Origin: a virus
Taxonomy: Duplodnaviria > Heunggongvirae > Uroviricota > Caudoviricetes
IMG/VR virus record: IMGVR_UViG_2671181111_000009
Length of the DNA stretch: 7,997 nt
Strand: one strand, 5' to 3'
Below the pieces are notes generated by a model. The model saw nothing but the letters and a program-made list of their open reading frames with translations. It was not told the origin of the DNA and made no database searches. This document shows, in pieces, positions 1-3,940 of the stretch. Numbering within the stretch: position 1 is the first letter of the stretch; the number at the start of each line of letters is the position of its first letter. Both the position numbers and the translations under genes were made by a program.

Positions 1-41
1 CACCTGTGTTGTTCTGAGGTGAGCATATCACCTCTGTTCAG

Positions 42-383
42 GTGGCCAAATTCAGTGTGCCACTTCATGTTCAGGCTTATGCAAACGCTGAATTTATTGC
101 TGCTTTTAATCCAAATGTTGCGCTGGCACTACTGGATGAACGGGAAAGAAACCTGCAATACATCAAAAGCCGCGATCAGGAGAACGAGGAAATTGCGCTA
201 ACGGTAGGGAAGTTGCGTGTTGAGCTGGAAGCAGCAGAGAACAACCTTATTGATAGTGAATGCCATGTTGCTGAACTGGAAGAAGCGCTACGCGATAAGC
301 AGGCGTTACTTGAAGCCTCAGAAAAGCGCATAGCAGAACTGGAGGCACAGACAGTTACCGTTAAAGAGGTTGGAGATGCTTGA
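42..383 (+). CDS. Ea22-like coiled-coil phage protein (113 aa from GTG; initiation context unclear, possibly 5'-disrupted)
   Basis: Translation contains LLDERERNLQYIKSRDQENEEIALTVGKLRVELE, matching the central segment of phage lambda Ea22 as I recall it; heptad-like coiled-coil C-terminus; no ATG anywhere in frame; in-frame TGA at 15-17. Confidence 0.45.
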   Translation: MAKFSVPLHVQAYANAEFIAAFNPNVALALLDERERNLQYIKSRDQENEEIALTVGKLRVELEAAENNLIDSECHVAELEEALRDKQALLEASEKRIAELEAQTVTVKEVGDA

Positions 384-459
384 TAGTTTTGCGCTCGTTG
401 CACTGGTTGGCATTGTAGCGTTGATTTGGGTGACATCCGGGAATCGGAGGCATAAGTGA
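376..459 (+). CDS. Small hydrophobic peptide, 27 aa (MLDSFALVALVGIVALIWVTSGNRRHK), single predicted TM helix with basic tail
   Basis: ATG at 376 preceded by AGAGG (365-369) with 6-nt spacer; ATG overlaps the upstream stop (GATGCTTGA); its TGA (457-459) overlaps the GTG start of the next ORF (GTGA). Fills the 73-bp intergenic gap exactly. Below the 60-aa cutoff of the ORF track. Confidence 0.3.
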   Translation: MLDSFALVALVGIVALIWVTSGNRRHK

Positions 460-890
460 ACGACAAAGAACTGATTAAAGAAATCAAAGAGCGTATCAGC
501 AGTTTGGATGTGCGAGACAATGTTGAACGCCGTGCTTATGAAATTGCTCTGGCATCGCTGACAGCAGAGCCGGTGGCGTGGAAGGTAACCTTCACGCAAA
601 TTGACCGTGAATATAACACGTTCACTGGTATGTATTCTGACAAAGCAGAAGTCGAACGGTGGGTGCGGCTGCATAAAGCATGTAATTTTCGGGCAGATAT
701 AACACCGCTTTATACCGCCCAGCCAGTGCCGGTAACTCCGGATGCCTGGATAAGCTGTAGTGAGCGAATGCCAGAAATGGGAGAGCGACAATGCTATGTG
801 TTAGCAGCTGACTTTAAAAACAACTACCCACCAAACATTGGCGCAGTTGTACGGAACGGATGTTGTGCGCATCCGGCAAAACCATCATGA
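456..890 (+). CDS. Phage hypothetical protein with DUF551-like C-terminal region (appears to lack the end of that domain)
   Basis: GTG start at 456 with strong SD GGAGG (446-450, 5-nt spacer); 144-aa ORF; C-terminal stretch PDAWISCSERMPEMGERQCYVLAADF resembles the start of the DUF551 family found next to Ea22-like genes in enterobacterial prophages (from memory). Confidence 0.5.
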   Translation: MNDKELIKEIKERISSLDVRDNVERRAYEIALASLTAEPVAWKVTFTQIDREYNTFTGMYSDKAEVERWVRLHKACNFRADITPLYTAQPVPVTPDAWISCSERMPEMGERQCYVLAADFKNNYPPNIGAVVRNGCCAHPAKPS

Positions 891-1545
891 AAACAAGTCG
901 CGCTTTGTTGAGGGGGTACACTTCTACAAGGTCGTTGGTGACGAGCTGCGCGCGCTAAAACACAAAGTAGCTTTAAACTACTTTGTGAAAAGTGCCCCAA
1001 ATGCACGCCACCTCATCCTCTGGACAGAGCGCGGAGCCGCCCGTCACGCGAAGATGCTCGAAACGGATCAGGCATGGGACGTGTTCGAAAAACTGGAGGA
1101 CGGCTACTTCAATCAGCGCGAAAAGGTTGCCAACCATCCTCAACCAGTACCGCAACCAGAAAGTAGCCTAGACCGTGCGCGAGCCATGGAAATAGCTTTG
1201 AACGTGGCGGATCGACTGGTGAATATGTTCCTGAATCTGTCCTCAGAATCAAAGCAGGCAGCAGTAGCTGGAGTGTTCAACCCGATTGTTGGTCGCGATG
1301 TTGTACCTCTGCCAGCTATCTCAGAGCACTACTACTCTGCTACGGAAGTCGGCCAGCGCTACGGTATTTCAGCCAACAAGGTAGGACGCATAGCCAACAC
1401 CTACATGCTCAAAACAGAAAAGTACGGGAAGTGGTTCATCGACAAATCGGCGCACAATGACAAGCAGGTTGAAACATTTCGGTACAACGAGGCTGGAGTG
1501 CACAAAATAGAGGAACTCATCGAAGGAGAGCGAAAGGCTGCATGA
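838..1545 (+). CDS. Phage antirepressor-like protein: ORF6N/Rha-like N-region plus KilAC/ANT-like HTH C-region; start codon uncertain (TTG 838 or GTG 865)
   Basis: 235-aa ORF; N-terminal LAQLYGTDVVRIRQNHHENKSRFVEGVHFYKV resembles the ORF6N domain motif (LAELYGV..LNQAVKRNIERFPEDFMFQL); C-terminal YYSATEVGQRYGISANKVGRIAN is HTH-like as in KilAC/ANT domains. No ATG and no SD near the ORF start; overlaps upstream ORF by 53 bp. Confidence 0.5.
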   Translation: MAQLYGTDVVRIRQNHHENKSRFVEGVHFYKVVGDELRALKHKVALNYFVKSAPNARHLILWTERGAARHAKMLETDQAWDVFEKLEDGYFNQREKVANHPQPVPQPESSLDRARAMEIALNVADRLVNMFLNLSSESKQAAVAGVFNPIVGRDVVPLPAISEHYYSATEVGQRYGISANKVGRIANTYMLKTEKYGKWFIDKSAHNDKQVETFRYNEAGVHKIEELIEGERKAA

Positions 1546-1559
1546 TTTTGACAAGATAG

Positions 1560-1581
1560 TTTTCCCCAAATGTGGGGAAAA
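1560..1581. other. Perfect 9-bp inverted repeat TTTTCCCCA-aatg-TGGGGAAAA (possible operator or RNA hairpin)
   Basis: Read directly: arms 1560-1568 and 1573-1581 are exact reverse complements; no downstream U-tract on either strand. Confidence 0.4.
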
Positions 1582-1623
1582 GCACGAATGGCGCGGCTTA
1601 CAGCAAGATAAGGCCTACATGAT

Positions 1624-1653
1624 TTGACAACACCGCATTAACGGGGCTATATT
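1624..1653 (+). promoter_or_regulatory. Candidate sigma70 promoter (TTGACA -35 at 1624-1629; TATATT -10 at 1648-1653; 18-bp spacer)
   Basis: Consensus -35 hexamer and 5/6 -10 hexamer in an intergenic region; predicted TSS near 1660. Confidence 0.35.
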
Positions 1654-1662
1654 CCGCTTCAT

Positions 1663-1677
1663 GGTGCTGAACACACC
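1663..1677 (+). other. Hairpin GGTG-CTGAACA-CACC (7-nt loop CTGAACA)
   Basis: Inverted repeat read directly; lies just downstream of the candidate promoter. Confidence 0.35.
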
Positions 1678-1691
1678 TTGCAAAGCGGAAA

Positions 1692-1720
1692 CCGCACCCG
1701 TCAGTCATGCGGATTTTTTA
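1692..1720 (+). terminator. Weak intrinsic-terminator-like hairpin CCGCA...TGCGG followed by ATTTTTTA
   Basis: 5-bp GC-rich stem (1692-1696 / 1708-1712) with 11-nt loop, then T-tract 1714-1719. Confidence 0.3.
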
Positions 1721-1819
1721 TGTCCATTTTTCAGATATGGTCGGGTAGCGCGTATACCGAAAAACAGCCGAAAGGTTAAGGATACGGGCCGACTTTGCAC
1801 GGTGTTCAAGTACCTGACC

Positions 1820-1838
1820 GCCCTGCTGAACACAGGGC
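1820..1838 (+). other. Hairpin GCCCTG-CTGAACA-CAGGGC (same 7-nt loop as hairpin at 1663-1677), about 30 nt upstream of the AntA-like start
   Basis: Perfect 6-bp inverted repeat with loop CTGAACA; the 10-mer GCTGAACACA is exactly repeated at 1666-1675 and 1825-1834; a third CTGAACA at 1842-1848. Confidence 0.4.
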
Positions 1839-1866
1839 TATCTGAACAAATGCAAAGGACATAAAA

Positions 1867-2490
1867 ATGACCAGTCAACTCATCCCCGTATTCAACGGCA
1901 CTATATCCAACGAAACAACTCTTCTCGTTAATGCCCGTGATTTACACGAATTTTTGGAAGTACGTCGTGACTTCTCTACATGGATTAAAAATCGCATAAC
2001 AGAATACGGCTTTGCCGTTGATGTCGATTACATTTTGGTTCACCAAAACAGGGGGATCAAAGGACGTGGAGGCGATCGCCGTAGCAAAGACTATCACCTC
2101 ACCCTCGATACAGCCAAAGAAACGGCGATGGTCGAGCGTAACGAAAAAGGCCGCCAGATACGCCGATACTTCATCGAGTGCGAAAAGAAACTTCGCAGCA
2201 TGCAACCAGCGCAGCAATTCACAGACGAAGAAATCATCCTCCTTTGCTATATGCAGGTACAGATGGAGAATGCGCAGGACATCTGCAAACGTCTGTACCC
2301 GATATTGAAGGAACTGAACTCATCATACACGAGCAAGCTGTATGACATCGCGTTTGAAACTTTTTACACGGTGACGAAAAACAGAGATGTACTGCTAAGG
2401 GAGGCGACACGACTTGACCAAGCAAGCGCCCTTTTCGAACGGGCAAAACCAATGCTGAAAAGCCTTCGGGCGAGACAATTCGAATTTTAA
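1867..2490 (+). CDS. AntA/AntB-domain antirepressor-like protein (N-terminal AntA domain about residues 1-110; C-terminal about 95 aa of unknown function)
   Basis: ATG 1867 with SD AAGGA (1855-1859, 7-nt spacer); N-terminus LIPVFNGT...LVNARDLHEFLEV..DFSTWIKNRITEYGF...DYHLTLDTAKE.AMVE...GRQIRRYFI matches the AntA-domain pattern of phage antirepressors as I recall it. Confidence 0.65.
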   Translation: MTSQLIPVFNGTISNETTLLVNARDLHEFLEVRRDFSTWIKNRITEYGFAVDVDYILVHQNRGIKGRGGDRRSKDYHLTLDTAKETAMVERNEKGRQIRRYFIECEKKLRSMQPAQQFTDEEIILLCYMQVQMENAQDICKRLYPILKELNSSYTSKLYDIAFETFYTVTKNRDVLLREATRLDQASALFERAKPMLKSLRARQFEF

Positions 2491-2495
2491 TCATC

Positions 2496-2521
2496 AAAGG
2501 AGCTTCGGCTCCTTTTTTGTT
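2496..2521 (+). terminator. Rho-independent terminator (AAAGGAGC-TTCG-GCTCCTTT stem-loop plus T6 run)
   Basis: 8-bp stem with UUCG tetraloop followed by TTTTTTGTT, 6 bp after the AntA-like stop; the A-tract upstream makes it potentially bidirectional. Confidence 0.6.
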
Positions 2522-2548
2522 GGAGAAAATAAACCAATACTCGCTCCC

Positions 2549-2590
2549 TTGCGAGTAATTGCGGAGACTTTGCGATGTACTTGACACTTC
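2549..2590 (+). promoter_or_regulatory. pI-like cII-dependent promoter (TTGC-N6-TTGC at 2549-2562; predicted TSS just inside xis)
   Basis: Direct repeat TTGC gagtaa TTGC read in sequence; geometry relative to the xis ATG (2575) matches the known lambda pI arrangement in which the transcript begins inside xis. Confidence 0.5.
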
Positions 2591-2793
2591 AGGAGTGGAA
2601 CGCACGCCAGCGACGCCCAAGGAGCCTTGAAACAGTTCGTCGATGGGTACGCGAGTGCAGGATATTCCCTCCTCCGGTTAAGGATGGAAGAGAGTATTTG
2701 TTCCACGAATCAGCGGTAAAGGTTGACTTAAATCGACCAGTAACAGGTAGCCTTTTGAAGAGGATCAGAAATGGGAAGAAGGCGAAGTCATGA
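2575..2793 (+). CDS. xis: Excisionase Xis (lambda type), 72 aa
   Basis: Translation MYLTLQEWNARQRRPRSLETVRRWVRECRIFPPPVKDGREYLFHESAVKVDLNRPVTGSLLKRIRNGKKAKS recognised as lambda Xis; SD GGAG 8 nt upstream; overlaps int by 23 bp. Confidence 0.95.
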   Translation: MYLTLQEWNARQRRPRSLETVRRWVRECRIFPPPVKDGREYLFHESAVKVDLNRPVTGSLLKRIRNGKKAKS

Positions 2794-3841
2794 GCGCCGG
2801 GATTTACCCCCTAACCTTTATATAAGAAACAATGGATATTACTGCTACAGGGACCCAAGGACGGGTAAAGAGTTTGGATTAGGCCGAGACAGGCGAATCG
2901 CAATCACTGAAGCTATACAGGCCAACATTGAGTTATTTTCAGGACACAAACACAAGCCTCTGACAGCGAGAATCAACAGTGATAATTCTGTTACGTTACA
3001 TTCATGGCTTGATCGCTACGAAAAAATCTTCGCCAGCAGAGGAATCAAGCAGAAGACACTCATAAATTACATGAGCAAAATTAAAGCAATAAGGAGGGGG
3101 CTGCCTGATGCTCCACTTGAAGACATCACCACAAAAGAAATTGCGGCAATGCTCAATGGATACATAGACGAGGGCAAGGCGGCATCAGCCAAGTTAATCA
3201 GATCAACACTGAGCGATGCATTCCGAGAGGCAATAGCTGAAGGCCATATAACAACAAACCCGGTCGCTGCCACTCGCGCAGCAAAATCAGAGGTAAGGAG
3301 ATCAAGACTTACGGCTGACGAATACCTGAAAATTTATCAAGCAGCAGAATCATCACCATGTTGGCTCAGACTTGCAATGGAACTGGCTGTTGTTACCGGG
3401 CAACGAGTTGGTGATTTATGCGAAATGAAGTGGTCTGATATCGTAGATGGATATCTTTATGTCGAGCAAAGCAAAACAGGCGTAAAAATTGCCATCCCTA
3501 CAACATTGCATGTTGATGCTCTCGGGATATCAATGAAGGAAACACTTGATAAATGCAAAGAGATTCTTGGCGGAGAAACCATAATTGCATCTACTCGTCG
3601 TGAACCGCTTTCATCCGGCACAGTATCAAGGTATTTTATGCGCGCACGAAAAGCATCAGGTCTTTCCTTCGAAGGGGATCCACCTACCTTTCACGAGTTG
3701 CGCAGTTTGTCTGCAAGACTCTATGAGAAGCAGATAAGCGATAAGTTTGCTCAACATCTTCTCGGGCACAAGTCGGACACCATGGCATCACAGTATCGTG
3801 ATGACAGAGGCAGGGAGTGGGACAAAATTGAAATCAAATAA
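2771..3841 (+). CDS. int: Tyrosine integrase Int (lambda type), 356 aa
   Basis: Translation MGRRRSHERRDLPPNLYIRNNGYYCYRDPRTGKEFGLGRDRRIAITEAIQ... through ...HLLGHKSDTMASQYRDDRGREWDKIEIK recognised as lambda Int, including the catalytic R..HxxR..Y region. Confidence 0.97.
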   Translation: MGRRRSHERRDLPPNLYIRNNGYYCYRDPRTGKEFGLGRDRRIAITEAIQANIELFSGHKHKPLTARINSDNSVTLHSWLDRYEKIFASRGIKQKTLINYMSKIKAIRRGLPDAPLEDITTKEIAAMLNGYIDEGKAASAKLIRSTLSDAFREAIAEGHITTNPVAATRAAKSEVRRSRLTADEYLKIYQAAESSPCWLRLAMELAVVTGQRVGDLCEMKWSDIVDGYLYVEQSKTGVKIAIPTTLHVDALGISMKETLDKCKEILGGETIIASTRREPLSSGTVSRYFMRARKASGLSFEGDPPTFHELRSLSARLYEKQISDKFAQHLLGHKSDTMASQYRDDRGREWDKIEIK

Positions 3842-3940
3842 TGATTTTATTTTGACTGATAATGACCTGTTCGTTGCAACAAATTGATAAGCAATGCTTT
3901 TTTATAATGCCAACTTAGTATAAAAAAGCAGGCTTCAACG
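3841..3940 (-). other. attL (B-O-P'): P' arm with arm-type Int sites, 15-bp core (3915-3929), short B arm
   Basis: Reverse complement reads ...TGAAGCCTGCTTTTTTATACTAAGTTGGCATTATAAAAAAGCATTGCTTATCAATTTGTTGCAACGAACAGGTCATTATCAGTCAAAATAAAATCATTATT, i.e. chromosomal B arm, lambda core and lambda P' arm; arm sites overlap the int stop as in lambda. Confidence 0.88.

What the first reader, a model, noticed from the sequence alone, without database searches (positions are those of the whole stretch)
798..890. 53-bp out-of-frame overlap with no canonical start: likely mosaic junction or frameshift between DUF551-like and ORF6N-like coding segments
The downstream 235-aa ORF has no ATG and no SD near its beginning (earliest starts are TTG 838 or GTG 865). 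Its recognisable ORF6N-like motif (LAQLYGTDVV...) begins essentially at the first residue, so the usual N-terminal 15-20 residues of the domain are missing. The upstream ORF, in another frame, ends at 890 before completing the DUF551-like region it seems to start. The overlap contains the run GACTTTAAAAACAAC. This looks like either an illegitimate recombination joint fusing two gene fragments, a frameshift mutation in a formerly single gene, or recoding.
Basis: partly seen in the sequence, partly recalled or inferred. Interest (0 to 1): 0.5.

Follow-up and report, generated by a model that had tools for sequence, protein, structure and literature searches.

The report
Deletion scar fusing two prophage genes
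The odd out-of-frame overlap is the scar of a 348-base deletion in a decaying Shigella flexneri prophage; it cut off the end of one gene and the start of the next, which is ordinary prophage decay and not recoding.

Summary
The cause is a simple 348-bp deletion with its joint at window 837/838.

- **Intact comparison.** An E. coli prophage (FDAARGOS_944, locus L001) matches the window 100% up to base 838 and 99.3% from base 837 onward. It carries 348 extra bases between those points.
- **What was lost.** The last 49 codons plus stop of a 176-aa DUF551 gene, a 124-nt intergenic spacer (terminator-like hairpin, Shine-Dalgarno, ATG), and the first 25 codons of a 260-aa ORF6N-domain anti-repressor-like gene.
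- **Polarity.** The same 348 bases sit between the same flanks in five further loci. Four of these are prophages at the same chromosomal site, next to the integrase and pectinesterase genes. The window therefore holds the derived, deleted state.
- **The joint.** The two breakpoints share only 2 bp (AT), and no insertion sequence lies there.
- **Not an artefact.** The exact junction is in 8 independent S. flexneri assemblies, including the complete genome SFL1520. The 144-aa fusion product is recorded on 156 contigs.
- **Products.** One is a DUF551 protein of 128 native residues plus a 16-residue out-of-frame tail. The other is a 5'-truncated ORF6N remnant with no Shine-Dalgarno and no ATG before position 1054. 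Annotators start it at three different codons.

Frameshift mutation and programmed recoding are not supported. Interest is low.

The parts
456..890 (+). Truncated DUF551 gene read through the deletion joint: 128 native residues (codon 128 is Ile both before and after the deletion, ATC to ATT) plus a 16-residue tail, GAVVRNGCCAHPAKPS, read from ORF6N DNA in the wrong frame. Stop is TGA 888-890. Strong Shine-Dalgarno GGAGG at 446-450.
   Evidence: Identical to L001 1557-1939 up to base 838. Pfam DUF551 positions 1-34 of 68 here, against 1-68 of 68 in the intact 176-aa protein.
837..838 (.). Deletion joint. The dinucleotide AT is the only sequence shared by the two breakpoints (2-bp microhomology). 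348 bp present in relatives (L001 1940-2287) are missing here.
   Evidence: the left arm matches L001 through 838 and the right arm matches back to 837, with offsets differing by 348; the 348-bp segment lies between the same flanks in L001, L004 and L013-L016.
805..837 (+). DUF551 coding DUF551 DNA that happens to be open in the ORF6N frame (after TAG 802-804). It contains CTG 808, which some public annotations use as the start of a 245-aa product.
838..1545 (+). 5'-truncated ORF6N-domain (anti-repressor-like) gene remnant: codons 26-260 of a 260-codon gene. It has lost its ATG, its Shine-Dalgarno GAGGA and its upstream spacer.
   Evidence: Pfam ORF6N 17-86 of 86 here, against 3-86 of 86 in the intact protein. 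The intact protein matches PHROG 1726 'anti-repressor' over residues 10-258 (E 4e-91).

Best explanation
A lambdoid prophage remnant at the lambda attachment site of Shigella flexneri lost 348 bp by illegitimate recombination between two sites that share only the dinucleotide AT.

The deletion ran from codon 129 of a DUF551 gene to codon 26 of the next gene, an ORF6N-domain anti-repressor-like gene. It removed half of the DUF551 domain, the whole intergenic spacer (terminator-like hairpin, Shine-Dalgarno, ATG) and the first strand-forming residues of the ORF6N domain.

348 is a multiple of three, but the two genes were in different frames. Ribosomes that start at the intact DUF551 start therefore run 16 codons into ORF6N DNA in the wrong frame and stop at 890. 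That produces the apparent 53-nt overlap. The ORF6N remainder has no proper translation start and is most likely a silent gene remnant.

Shown: the deletion, its exact ends, its polarity, and its presence in many independent assemblies. Inferred: the mechanism (slippage or microhomology end joining) and the lack of expression of the downstream remnant.
For: - **Flanks.** L001 (E. coli FDAARGOS_944) matches window 67-838 at 100% and window 837-1600 with 5 mismatches, with exactly 348 extra bases between.
- **Intact genes.** In L001 both genes are complete: the 176-aa DUF551 protein covers Pfam 1-68 of 68 (70.8 bits) and the 260-aa ORF6N protein covers 3-86 of 86 (71.5 bits). The window gives 1-34 and 17-86.
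- **Polarity.** The 348-bp segment is also present between the same flanks in L004 and in L013-L016. L013-L016 are prophages beside the same integrase and pectinesterase genes in assemblies labelled S. flexneri. The ORF6N 5' end plus about 100 nt of upstream spacer also occurs behind different upstream genes in L002 and L003.
- **Absence in E. coli.** No single uninterrupted match spans the joint in 5,426 complete E. coli genomes. Only two records span it, both with the 348-bp insert.
- **Real junction.** The exact 121-nt junction sequence is in L005-L012, eight independent assemblies, including the Nanopore plus Illumina complete genome CP032513.1 of S. flexneri SFL1520. The exact 144-aa product is on 156 contigs named S. 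flexneri.
- **No proper start.** There is no Shine-Dalgarno before any candidate start. Public annotations disagree: 226, 235 and 245 aa.
- **Decay context.** Insertion sequences interrupt ea22 just upstream in L005-L007. [quoted passage not shown]
Against: Nothing found contradicts it. The downstream remnant keeps 235 open codons in all eight deletion-bearing loci examined, which could mean retained use. With at most 3 substitutions in 3.9 kb among those loci, recency explains it equally well. Expression was not measured.
Confidence: 0.95

Rival explanations
1. Programmed or fortuitous +1 ribosomal frameshifting (or transcriptional slippage) within 805-890, for example on the A5 run at 816-820, joins the DUF551 N-terminal part to the ORF6N remnant as one chimeric protein.
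For: The downstream frame is +1 and is open from 805. An AAA-A context (816-819) would let tRNA-Lys re-pair in the +1 frame (sequence). The remnant has no start of its own.
Against: The same A5 run and surrounding sequence are present unchanged in the intact DUF551 gene of L001, where they are plain coding sequence. The overlap exists only because of a deletion that is absent from relatives. No slippery heptamer is in phase, and no stimulator was identified. Five A's are too few for efficient slippage (established knowledge).
Confidence: 0.02
2. The truncated ORF6N gene is still a working gene, translated from TTG 838, GTG 865 or CTG 808, and makes an N-terminally shortened anti-repressor-like protein.
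For: The 235 codons remain open in all deletion-bearing loci seen. Public annotation pipelines call it a CDS.
Against: There is no Shine-Dalgarno (pairing energies +2.4 to -4.1 against -5.9 to -9.5 kcal/mol for real starts nearby). Pfam model positions 3-16 of the domain are missing. Both lineage-specific substitutions in the remnant change the amino acid: I77S in all deletion-bearing loci and P157L in the window and L010. The element is a cryptic remnant riddled with insertion sequences.
Confidence: 0.05
3. The joint is a mosaic boundary made by recombination between two different phages, or an assembly artefact.
For: This part of lambdoid genomes is highly mosaic. The ORF6N module lies behind three different upstream genes in L001-L004, and L004 carries a different Ea22-DUF551 fusion.
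Against: Both flanks match one single parental arrangement at 100% and 99.3%, differing only by a clean 348-bp loss, so two parents are not needed. An artefact is excluded by the identical junction in eight independent assemblies, including a hybrid long-read complete genome, and by 156 contigs carrying the exact product.
Confidence: 0.03

Closest known systems
Intact DUF551 / ORF6N gene pair of the att-lambda prophage of E. coli FDAARGOS_944 (NZ_CP065613.1; WP_244461931.1 and WP_038341319.1)
   Same: Same DNA: 100% identity over window 67-838 and 99.3% over 837-1600. Same neighbours: ea22, antA, xis, int.
   Different: The window lacks 348 bp: the DUF551 3' end, the 124-nt spacer and the ORF6N 5' end.
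Cryptic-prophage decay by deletion and insertion sequences in Shigella genomes (e.g. SFL1520, PMC6424224)
   Same: A lineage-fixed internal deletion leaves gene fragments. Insertion sequences interrupt neighbouring genes.
   Different: This joint itself carries no insertion sequence, only a 2-bp microhomology.
Programmed frameshift sites with overlapping out-of-frame ORFs (IS3-family transposases, prfB, lambda G/GT)
   Same: Two overlapping ORFs in different frames, with the second lacking its own start.
   Different: The arrangement is not conserved, arose by deletion, has no in-phase slippery motif and does not reconstitute any known protein architecture.
Phage anti-repressors with KilA-N-like, ORF6N or AntA N-terminal domains (PHROG 1726; P22 Ant-type)
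   Same: The intact 260-aa relative matches PHROG 1726 'anti-repressor' end to end and Pfam ORF6N.
   Different: The window copy lacks the first 25 residues and all translation signals. Anti-repressor function is an annotation label and was not tested.

Membership tests
Pfam DUF551 (PF04448) | Score above the gathering threshold (22 bits) | tested here: met
   29 bits, E 2.1e-6.
Pfam DUF551 (PF04448) | Complete domain (model 1-68) | tested here: not met
   The window ORF covers only 1-34 of 68. The intact relative covers 1-68 at 70.8 bits.
Pfam ORF6N (PF10543) | Score above the gathering threshold (27.8 bits) | tested here: met
   57.9 bits, E 1.3e-15.
Pfam ORF6N (PF10543) | Complete domain with its own start codon and ribosome binding site | tested here: not met
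   Model positions 17-86 only, and the match starts at residue 1. The intact relative covers 3-86 with an ATG and GAGGA. No Shine-Dalgarno is present here.
Deletion-derived gene remnants (pseudogenes) in a cryptic prophage | Relatives carry the missing segment between identical flanks | tested here: met
   348 bp are present in L001, L004 and L013-L016 between flanks that match the window.
Deletion-derived gene remnants (pseudogenes) in a cryptic prophage | The junction is reproducible in independent assemblies (not an artefact) | tested here: met
   Exact 121-nt junction in 8 loci. The product is on 156 contigs and in the complete genome CP032513.1.
Deletion-derived gene remnants (pseudogenes) in a cryptic prophage | Loss of expression or function of the remnants | not testable with these tools
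   Inferred only, from the missing start, Shine-Dalgarno and domain parts.
Programmed ribosomal frameshift / recoding site | Overlap architecture conserved among relatives | tested here: not met
   Relatives have two separate genes 124 nt apart. No uninterrupted match to the junction exists in 5,426 E. coli genomes.
Programmed ribosomal frameshift / recoding site | Slippery motif in the correct phase for the required shift | tested here: not met
   The zero frame reads GAC TTT AAA AAC, so T TTA AAA is out of phase for a -1 shift, and the required shift is +1. Only a generic A5 run is available (sequence).
Programmed ribosomal frameshift / recoding site | Frameshift product detectable | not testable with these tools
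   Needs proteomics or Ribo-seq.
Mosaic joint between different phage genomes | The two flanks derive from different parental sequences | tested here: not met
   Both flanks are contiguous, apart from the 348 bp, in one relative at 99.3-100% identity.

The most novel reading that the evidence does not exclude
The deletion accidentally created a new expressed product in S. flexneri. This would be either the 144-aa DUF551 N-terminal fragment with a 16-residue cysteine-containing tail, or a low-level +1-shifted DUF551-ORF6N chimera. In this reading the product has acquired a function, for example interference with incoming lambdoid phages, that keeps the remnant open in the lineage.
Probability: 0.03. 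Interest if true: 0.35.

Novelty: already known. Interest (0 to 1): 0.08.

Why it matters
The biological interest is small. It is one more example of gene decay in a Shigella cryptic prophage, and it shows that an out-of-frame overlap with no start codon can be explained by one comparison with an intact relative.

The practical value is for annotation. Public pipelines call both remnants as ordinary CDSs ('DUF551 domain-containing protein', 'ORF6N domain-containing protein'), with three different starts for the second. Both should be flagged as truncated pseudogenes. The exact joint could also serve as a lineage marker within S. flexneri.

Tried and rejected
- **Phage collection search.** No phage record covers more than 22% of the region, so it gave no intact comparator. 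The E. coli genome collection did.
- **Junction scan of GTDB species-representative genomes.** An exact 33-nt junction pattern gave 0 hits. This is uninformative, because there is one genome per species.
- **MAFFT alignment.** It misplaced the gap, so I recomputed the breakpoints by direct base-by-base extension.
- **Frameshift in a single gene.** Rejected, because the ancestral state is two genes.
- **Recoding.** Rejected as unsupported.
- **Deletion mediated by an insertion sequence.** Rejected, because no such sequence lies at the joint.
- **Assembly artefact.** Rejected, because eight independent assemblies carry the junction.
- **ATG 887-889 overlapping the TGA 888-890 (ATGA).** Considered as a coupling restart. 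It lies in the third frame, not the ORF6N frame, and by my reading of the sequence it opens only a short ORF.
- **Small inverted repeat across the joint (829-843).** One search flagged it as terminator-like on the minus strand. It has 6 pairs including a G-T and lies within chance expectation (3 found against 1.6 ± 1.2 in shuffles).

Full report
**Setting**

The window is a Shigella flexneri contig.
- The exact 144-aa and 235-aa products are recorded under that species name.
- The first 3.9 kb are 99.9-100% identical to S. flexneri assemblies, including the complete genome of strain SFL1520, CP032513.1.

The + strand carries the left-arm end of a lambdoid prophage:
- an Ead/Ea22 C-terminal fragment (42-383)
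- a DUF551 ORF (456-890)
- an ORF6N ORF (838-1545)
- an AntA/P22AR anti-repressor gene (1867-2490)
- an ORF at 2575-2793 and an ORF at 2771-3841, which correspond to the products that carry the excisionase (Exc) and phage-integrase Pfam families in related loci

The lambda att core GCTTTTTTATACTAA lies at 3915-3929 on the minus strand. Host genes follow; the 427-aa product carries a pectinesterase domain in related loci.

**Checking the observation**

- The two ORFs overlap by 53 nt (838-890), and the second is in the +1 frame.
- That frame opens at 805 after a TAG. It offers only CTG 808, TTG 838, TTG 847 and GTG 865 as starts, and the first in-frame ATG is at 1054.
- None of these starts has a usable Shine-Dalgarno. 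Anti-SD pairing is +0.8 to -4.1 kcal/mol, against -9.5 for the DUF551 start and -5.9 for the native ORF6N start in a relative.
- Pfam places the first ORF on positions 1-34 of the 68-position DUF551 model. It places the second on positions 17-86 of the 86-position ORF6N model, starting at its very first residue.

**What it is**

A megablast of window 400-1600 against 5,426 complete E. coli genomes found one record covering the whole query. It did so in two pieces spread over 1,549 bases instead of 1,201. That record is E. coli FDAARGOS_944, locus L001. It has a complete DUF551 gene, a 124-nt spacer and a complete 260-codon ORF6N gene, followed by the same antA, xis and int.

Base-by-base extension fixed the breakpoints.
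- The left arm (window up to 838) is identical to L001 up to 1939.
- The right arm (window 837-1600) equals L001 2286-3049 with 5 mismatches.
- The window therefore lacks L001 1940-2287, 348 bp, and the two breakpoints share only the dinucleotide AT.

The lost segment consists of three parts:
- 148 nt: the last 49 codons and the stop of DUF551
- 124 nt: the intergenic spacer
- 76 nt: the first 25 codons plus one base of ORF6N

The spacer contains a terminator-like hairpin followed by TCTTTTAT. It folds more stably than every one of 200 shuffles (z = -3.8). It ends in GAGGA-N6-ATG.

In L001 both proteins give full-length Pfam matches: DUF551 1-68 of 68 at 70.8 bits, and ORF6N 3-86 of 86 at 71.5 bits. 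The intact ORF6N protein matches PHROG 1726, labelled 'anti-repressor', from residue 10 to 258.

**Polarity (deletion here, not insertion there)**

- The same 348 bp lie between the same flanks in L004 (E. coli FDAARGOS_943) and in L013-L016.
- L013-L016 are four assemblies labelled S. flexneri. Their prophage sits beside the same integrase and pectinesterase genes, that is, at the same chromosomal site.
- The ORF6N 5' end with about 100 nt of its spacer also occurs behind unrelated upstream genes (DUF4222) in L002 and L003.
- Completeness of both Pfam domains in the long form points the same way.

**Is the joint real?**

- The exact 121-nt sequence across it is present in eight independently assembled loci, L005-L012: four NCBI assemblies and four Logan assemblies of separate sequencing runs.
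- One of these is the Nanopore plus Illumina complete genome SFL1520.
- The index lists the exact 144-aa product in 300 blocks of the collection, and the cluster table gives 156 contigs.
- A 161-nt query centred on the joint finds no uninterrupted match in any of the 5,426 complete E. coli genomes.
- The deletion is therefore a fixed character of a S. flexneri lineage.

**Consequences**

The two genes lay in different frames and 348 is a multiple of three, so the frames stay offset.
- Translation from the intact DUF551 start gives 128 native residues. Codon 128 remains Ile (ATC to ATT).
- It then reads 16 codons of ORF6N DNA out of frame (GAVVRNGCCAHPAKPS) to TGA 888-890.
- The ORF6N remainder (codons 26-260) has lost its start, its Shine-Dalgarno and 14 residues of its N-terminal domain.

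Public annotations give it 226, 235 or 245 residues, which shows that no start is convincing.

Two substitutions in the remnant are specific to the deletion-bearing lineage, and both change the amino acid. I77S is in all such loci, and P157L is in the window and L010 only. This fits relaxed constraint, but the numbers are far too small to prove it.

The surroundings are decaying too. In L005-L007 insertion sequences interrupt ea22 and flank the remnant. The SFL1520 paper notes that its phage regions are mostly cryptic through deletions (PMC6424224).

**Rivals**

- **Frameshift mutation in one former gene.** Excluded by the two-gene ancestor.
- **Recoding.** It lacks every defining feature I could test.
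  - The architecture is not conserved.
  - The TTTAAAA run is out of phase for a -1 shift, and the shift needed is +1.
  - The sequence is unchanged from the intact gene, where it is simply D-F-K-N-N.
  - A rare spontaneous +1 slip on the A5 run cannot be excluded without protein data, so I give it about 2%.
- **Joint between two different phages.** Unnecessary, because one parent explains both flanks.
- **Assembly artefact.** Excluded by replication across independent assemblies.

**Mechanism (inferred)**

The joint has 2-bp microhomology, no insertion sequence and no duplication. This is the signature of illegitimate recombination, either replication slippage or RecA-independent microhomology end joining. 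These are the generic routes to small deletions in enterobacteria (established knowledge; not testable here).

**Verdict**

This is an ordinary deletion scar in a cryptic prophage. Interest is low, and the main value is in correcting annotation.

Noticed in passing
window 1739-1827 (+): Rfam match to sRNA-Xcc1 (RF02221) at 68.3 bits (gathering score 53, E 3.7e-11, full model 1-87). It lies in the 320-nt non-coding gap between the ORF6N remnant and antA.
   Followed up: no
window 1560-1581 and 1624-1653: A near-consensus sigma-70-like promoter (TTGACA-18-TATATT, 11 of 12 matches, + strand) sits just downstream of a perfect TTTTCCCC-ACAT-GGGGAAAA hairpin. Both are conserved in L001 (3009-3030 and 3073-3102). 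They may drive a short transcript or antA.
   Followed up: partly
window 376-459 (+): An unannotated 27-codon hydrophobic ORF (MLDSFALVALVGIVALIWVTSGNRRHK) with AAGAGG upstream. Its ATG overlaps the end of ea22, and its TGA overlaps the GTG start of DUF551 (GTGA). No PHROG match. Identical in L001.
   Followed up: partly
window 1-66; L005-L007 1372-2540: Homology to the intact prophage starts at window 67. In related S. flexneri loci an IS3-family element (HTH_Tnp_1 plus rve) lies immediately upstream, splitting the Ead/Ea22 gene. Several short-read contigs end at window 38-48. The window start therefore appears to be the end of an insertion sequence.
   Followed up: partly
window 3915-3929 (-): The exact lambda att core GCTTTTTTATACTAA lies between the integrase gene and the host pectinesterase-domain gene. 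This places the prophage remnant at the lambda attachment site.
   Followed up: partly
L004 985-1758 (E. coli FDAARGOS_943): A different rearrangement in the same region. Window 67-343 (ea22) and window 729-838 (DUF551) lie about 52 nt apart, and the whole stretch is annotated as one 'ead/Ea22-like' protein. This indicates an independent Ea22-DUF551 fusion by deletion.
   Followed up: no
L001 1557-2087: RefSeq annotates this single uninterrupted 176-codon DUF551 ORF as two overlapping in-frame features: a 'partial' pseudogene at 1557-1683 and a CDS at 1659-2087, whose first codon corresponds to CTG at window 558. The start with the strong GGAGG is 1557. In S. flexneri the same gene is also called as 86- to 144-aa products.
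   Followed up: partly
L011 2733-3804: In one S. flexneri run (ERR230542) the integrase gene is called as two pieces (259 and 67 aa), and the alignment to the window over 39-3889 has a single gap. This may be a 1-nt frameshift and further decay, or a sequencing error.
   Followed up: no
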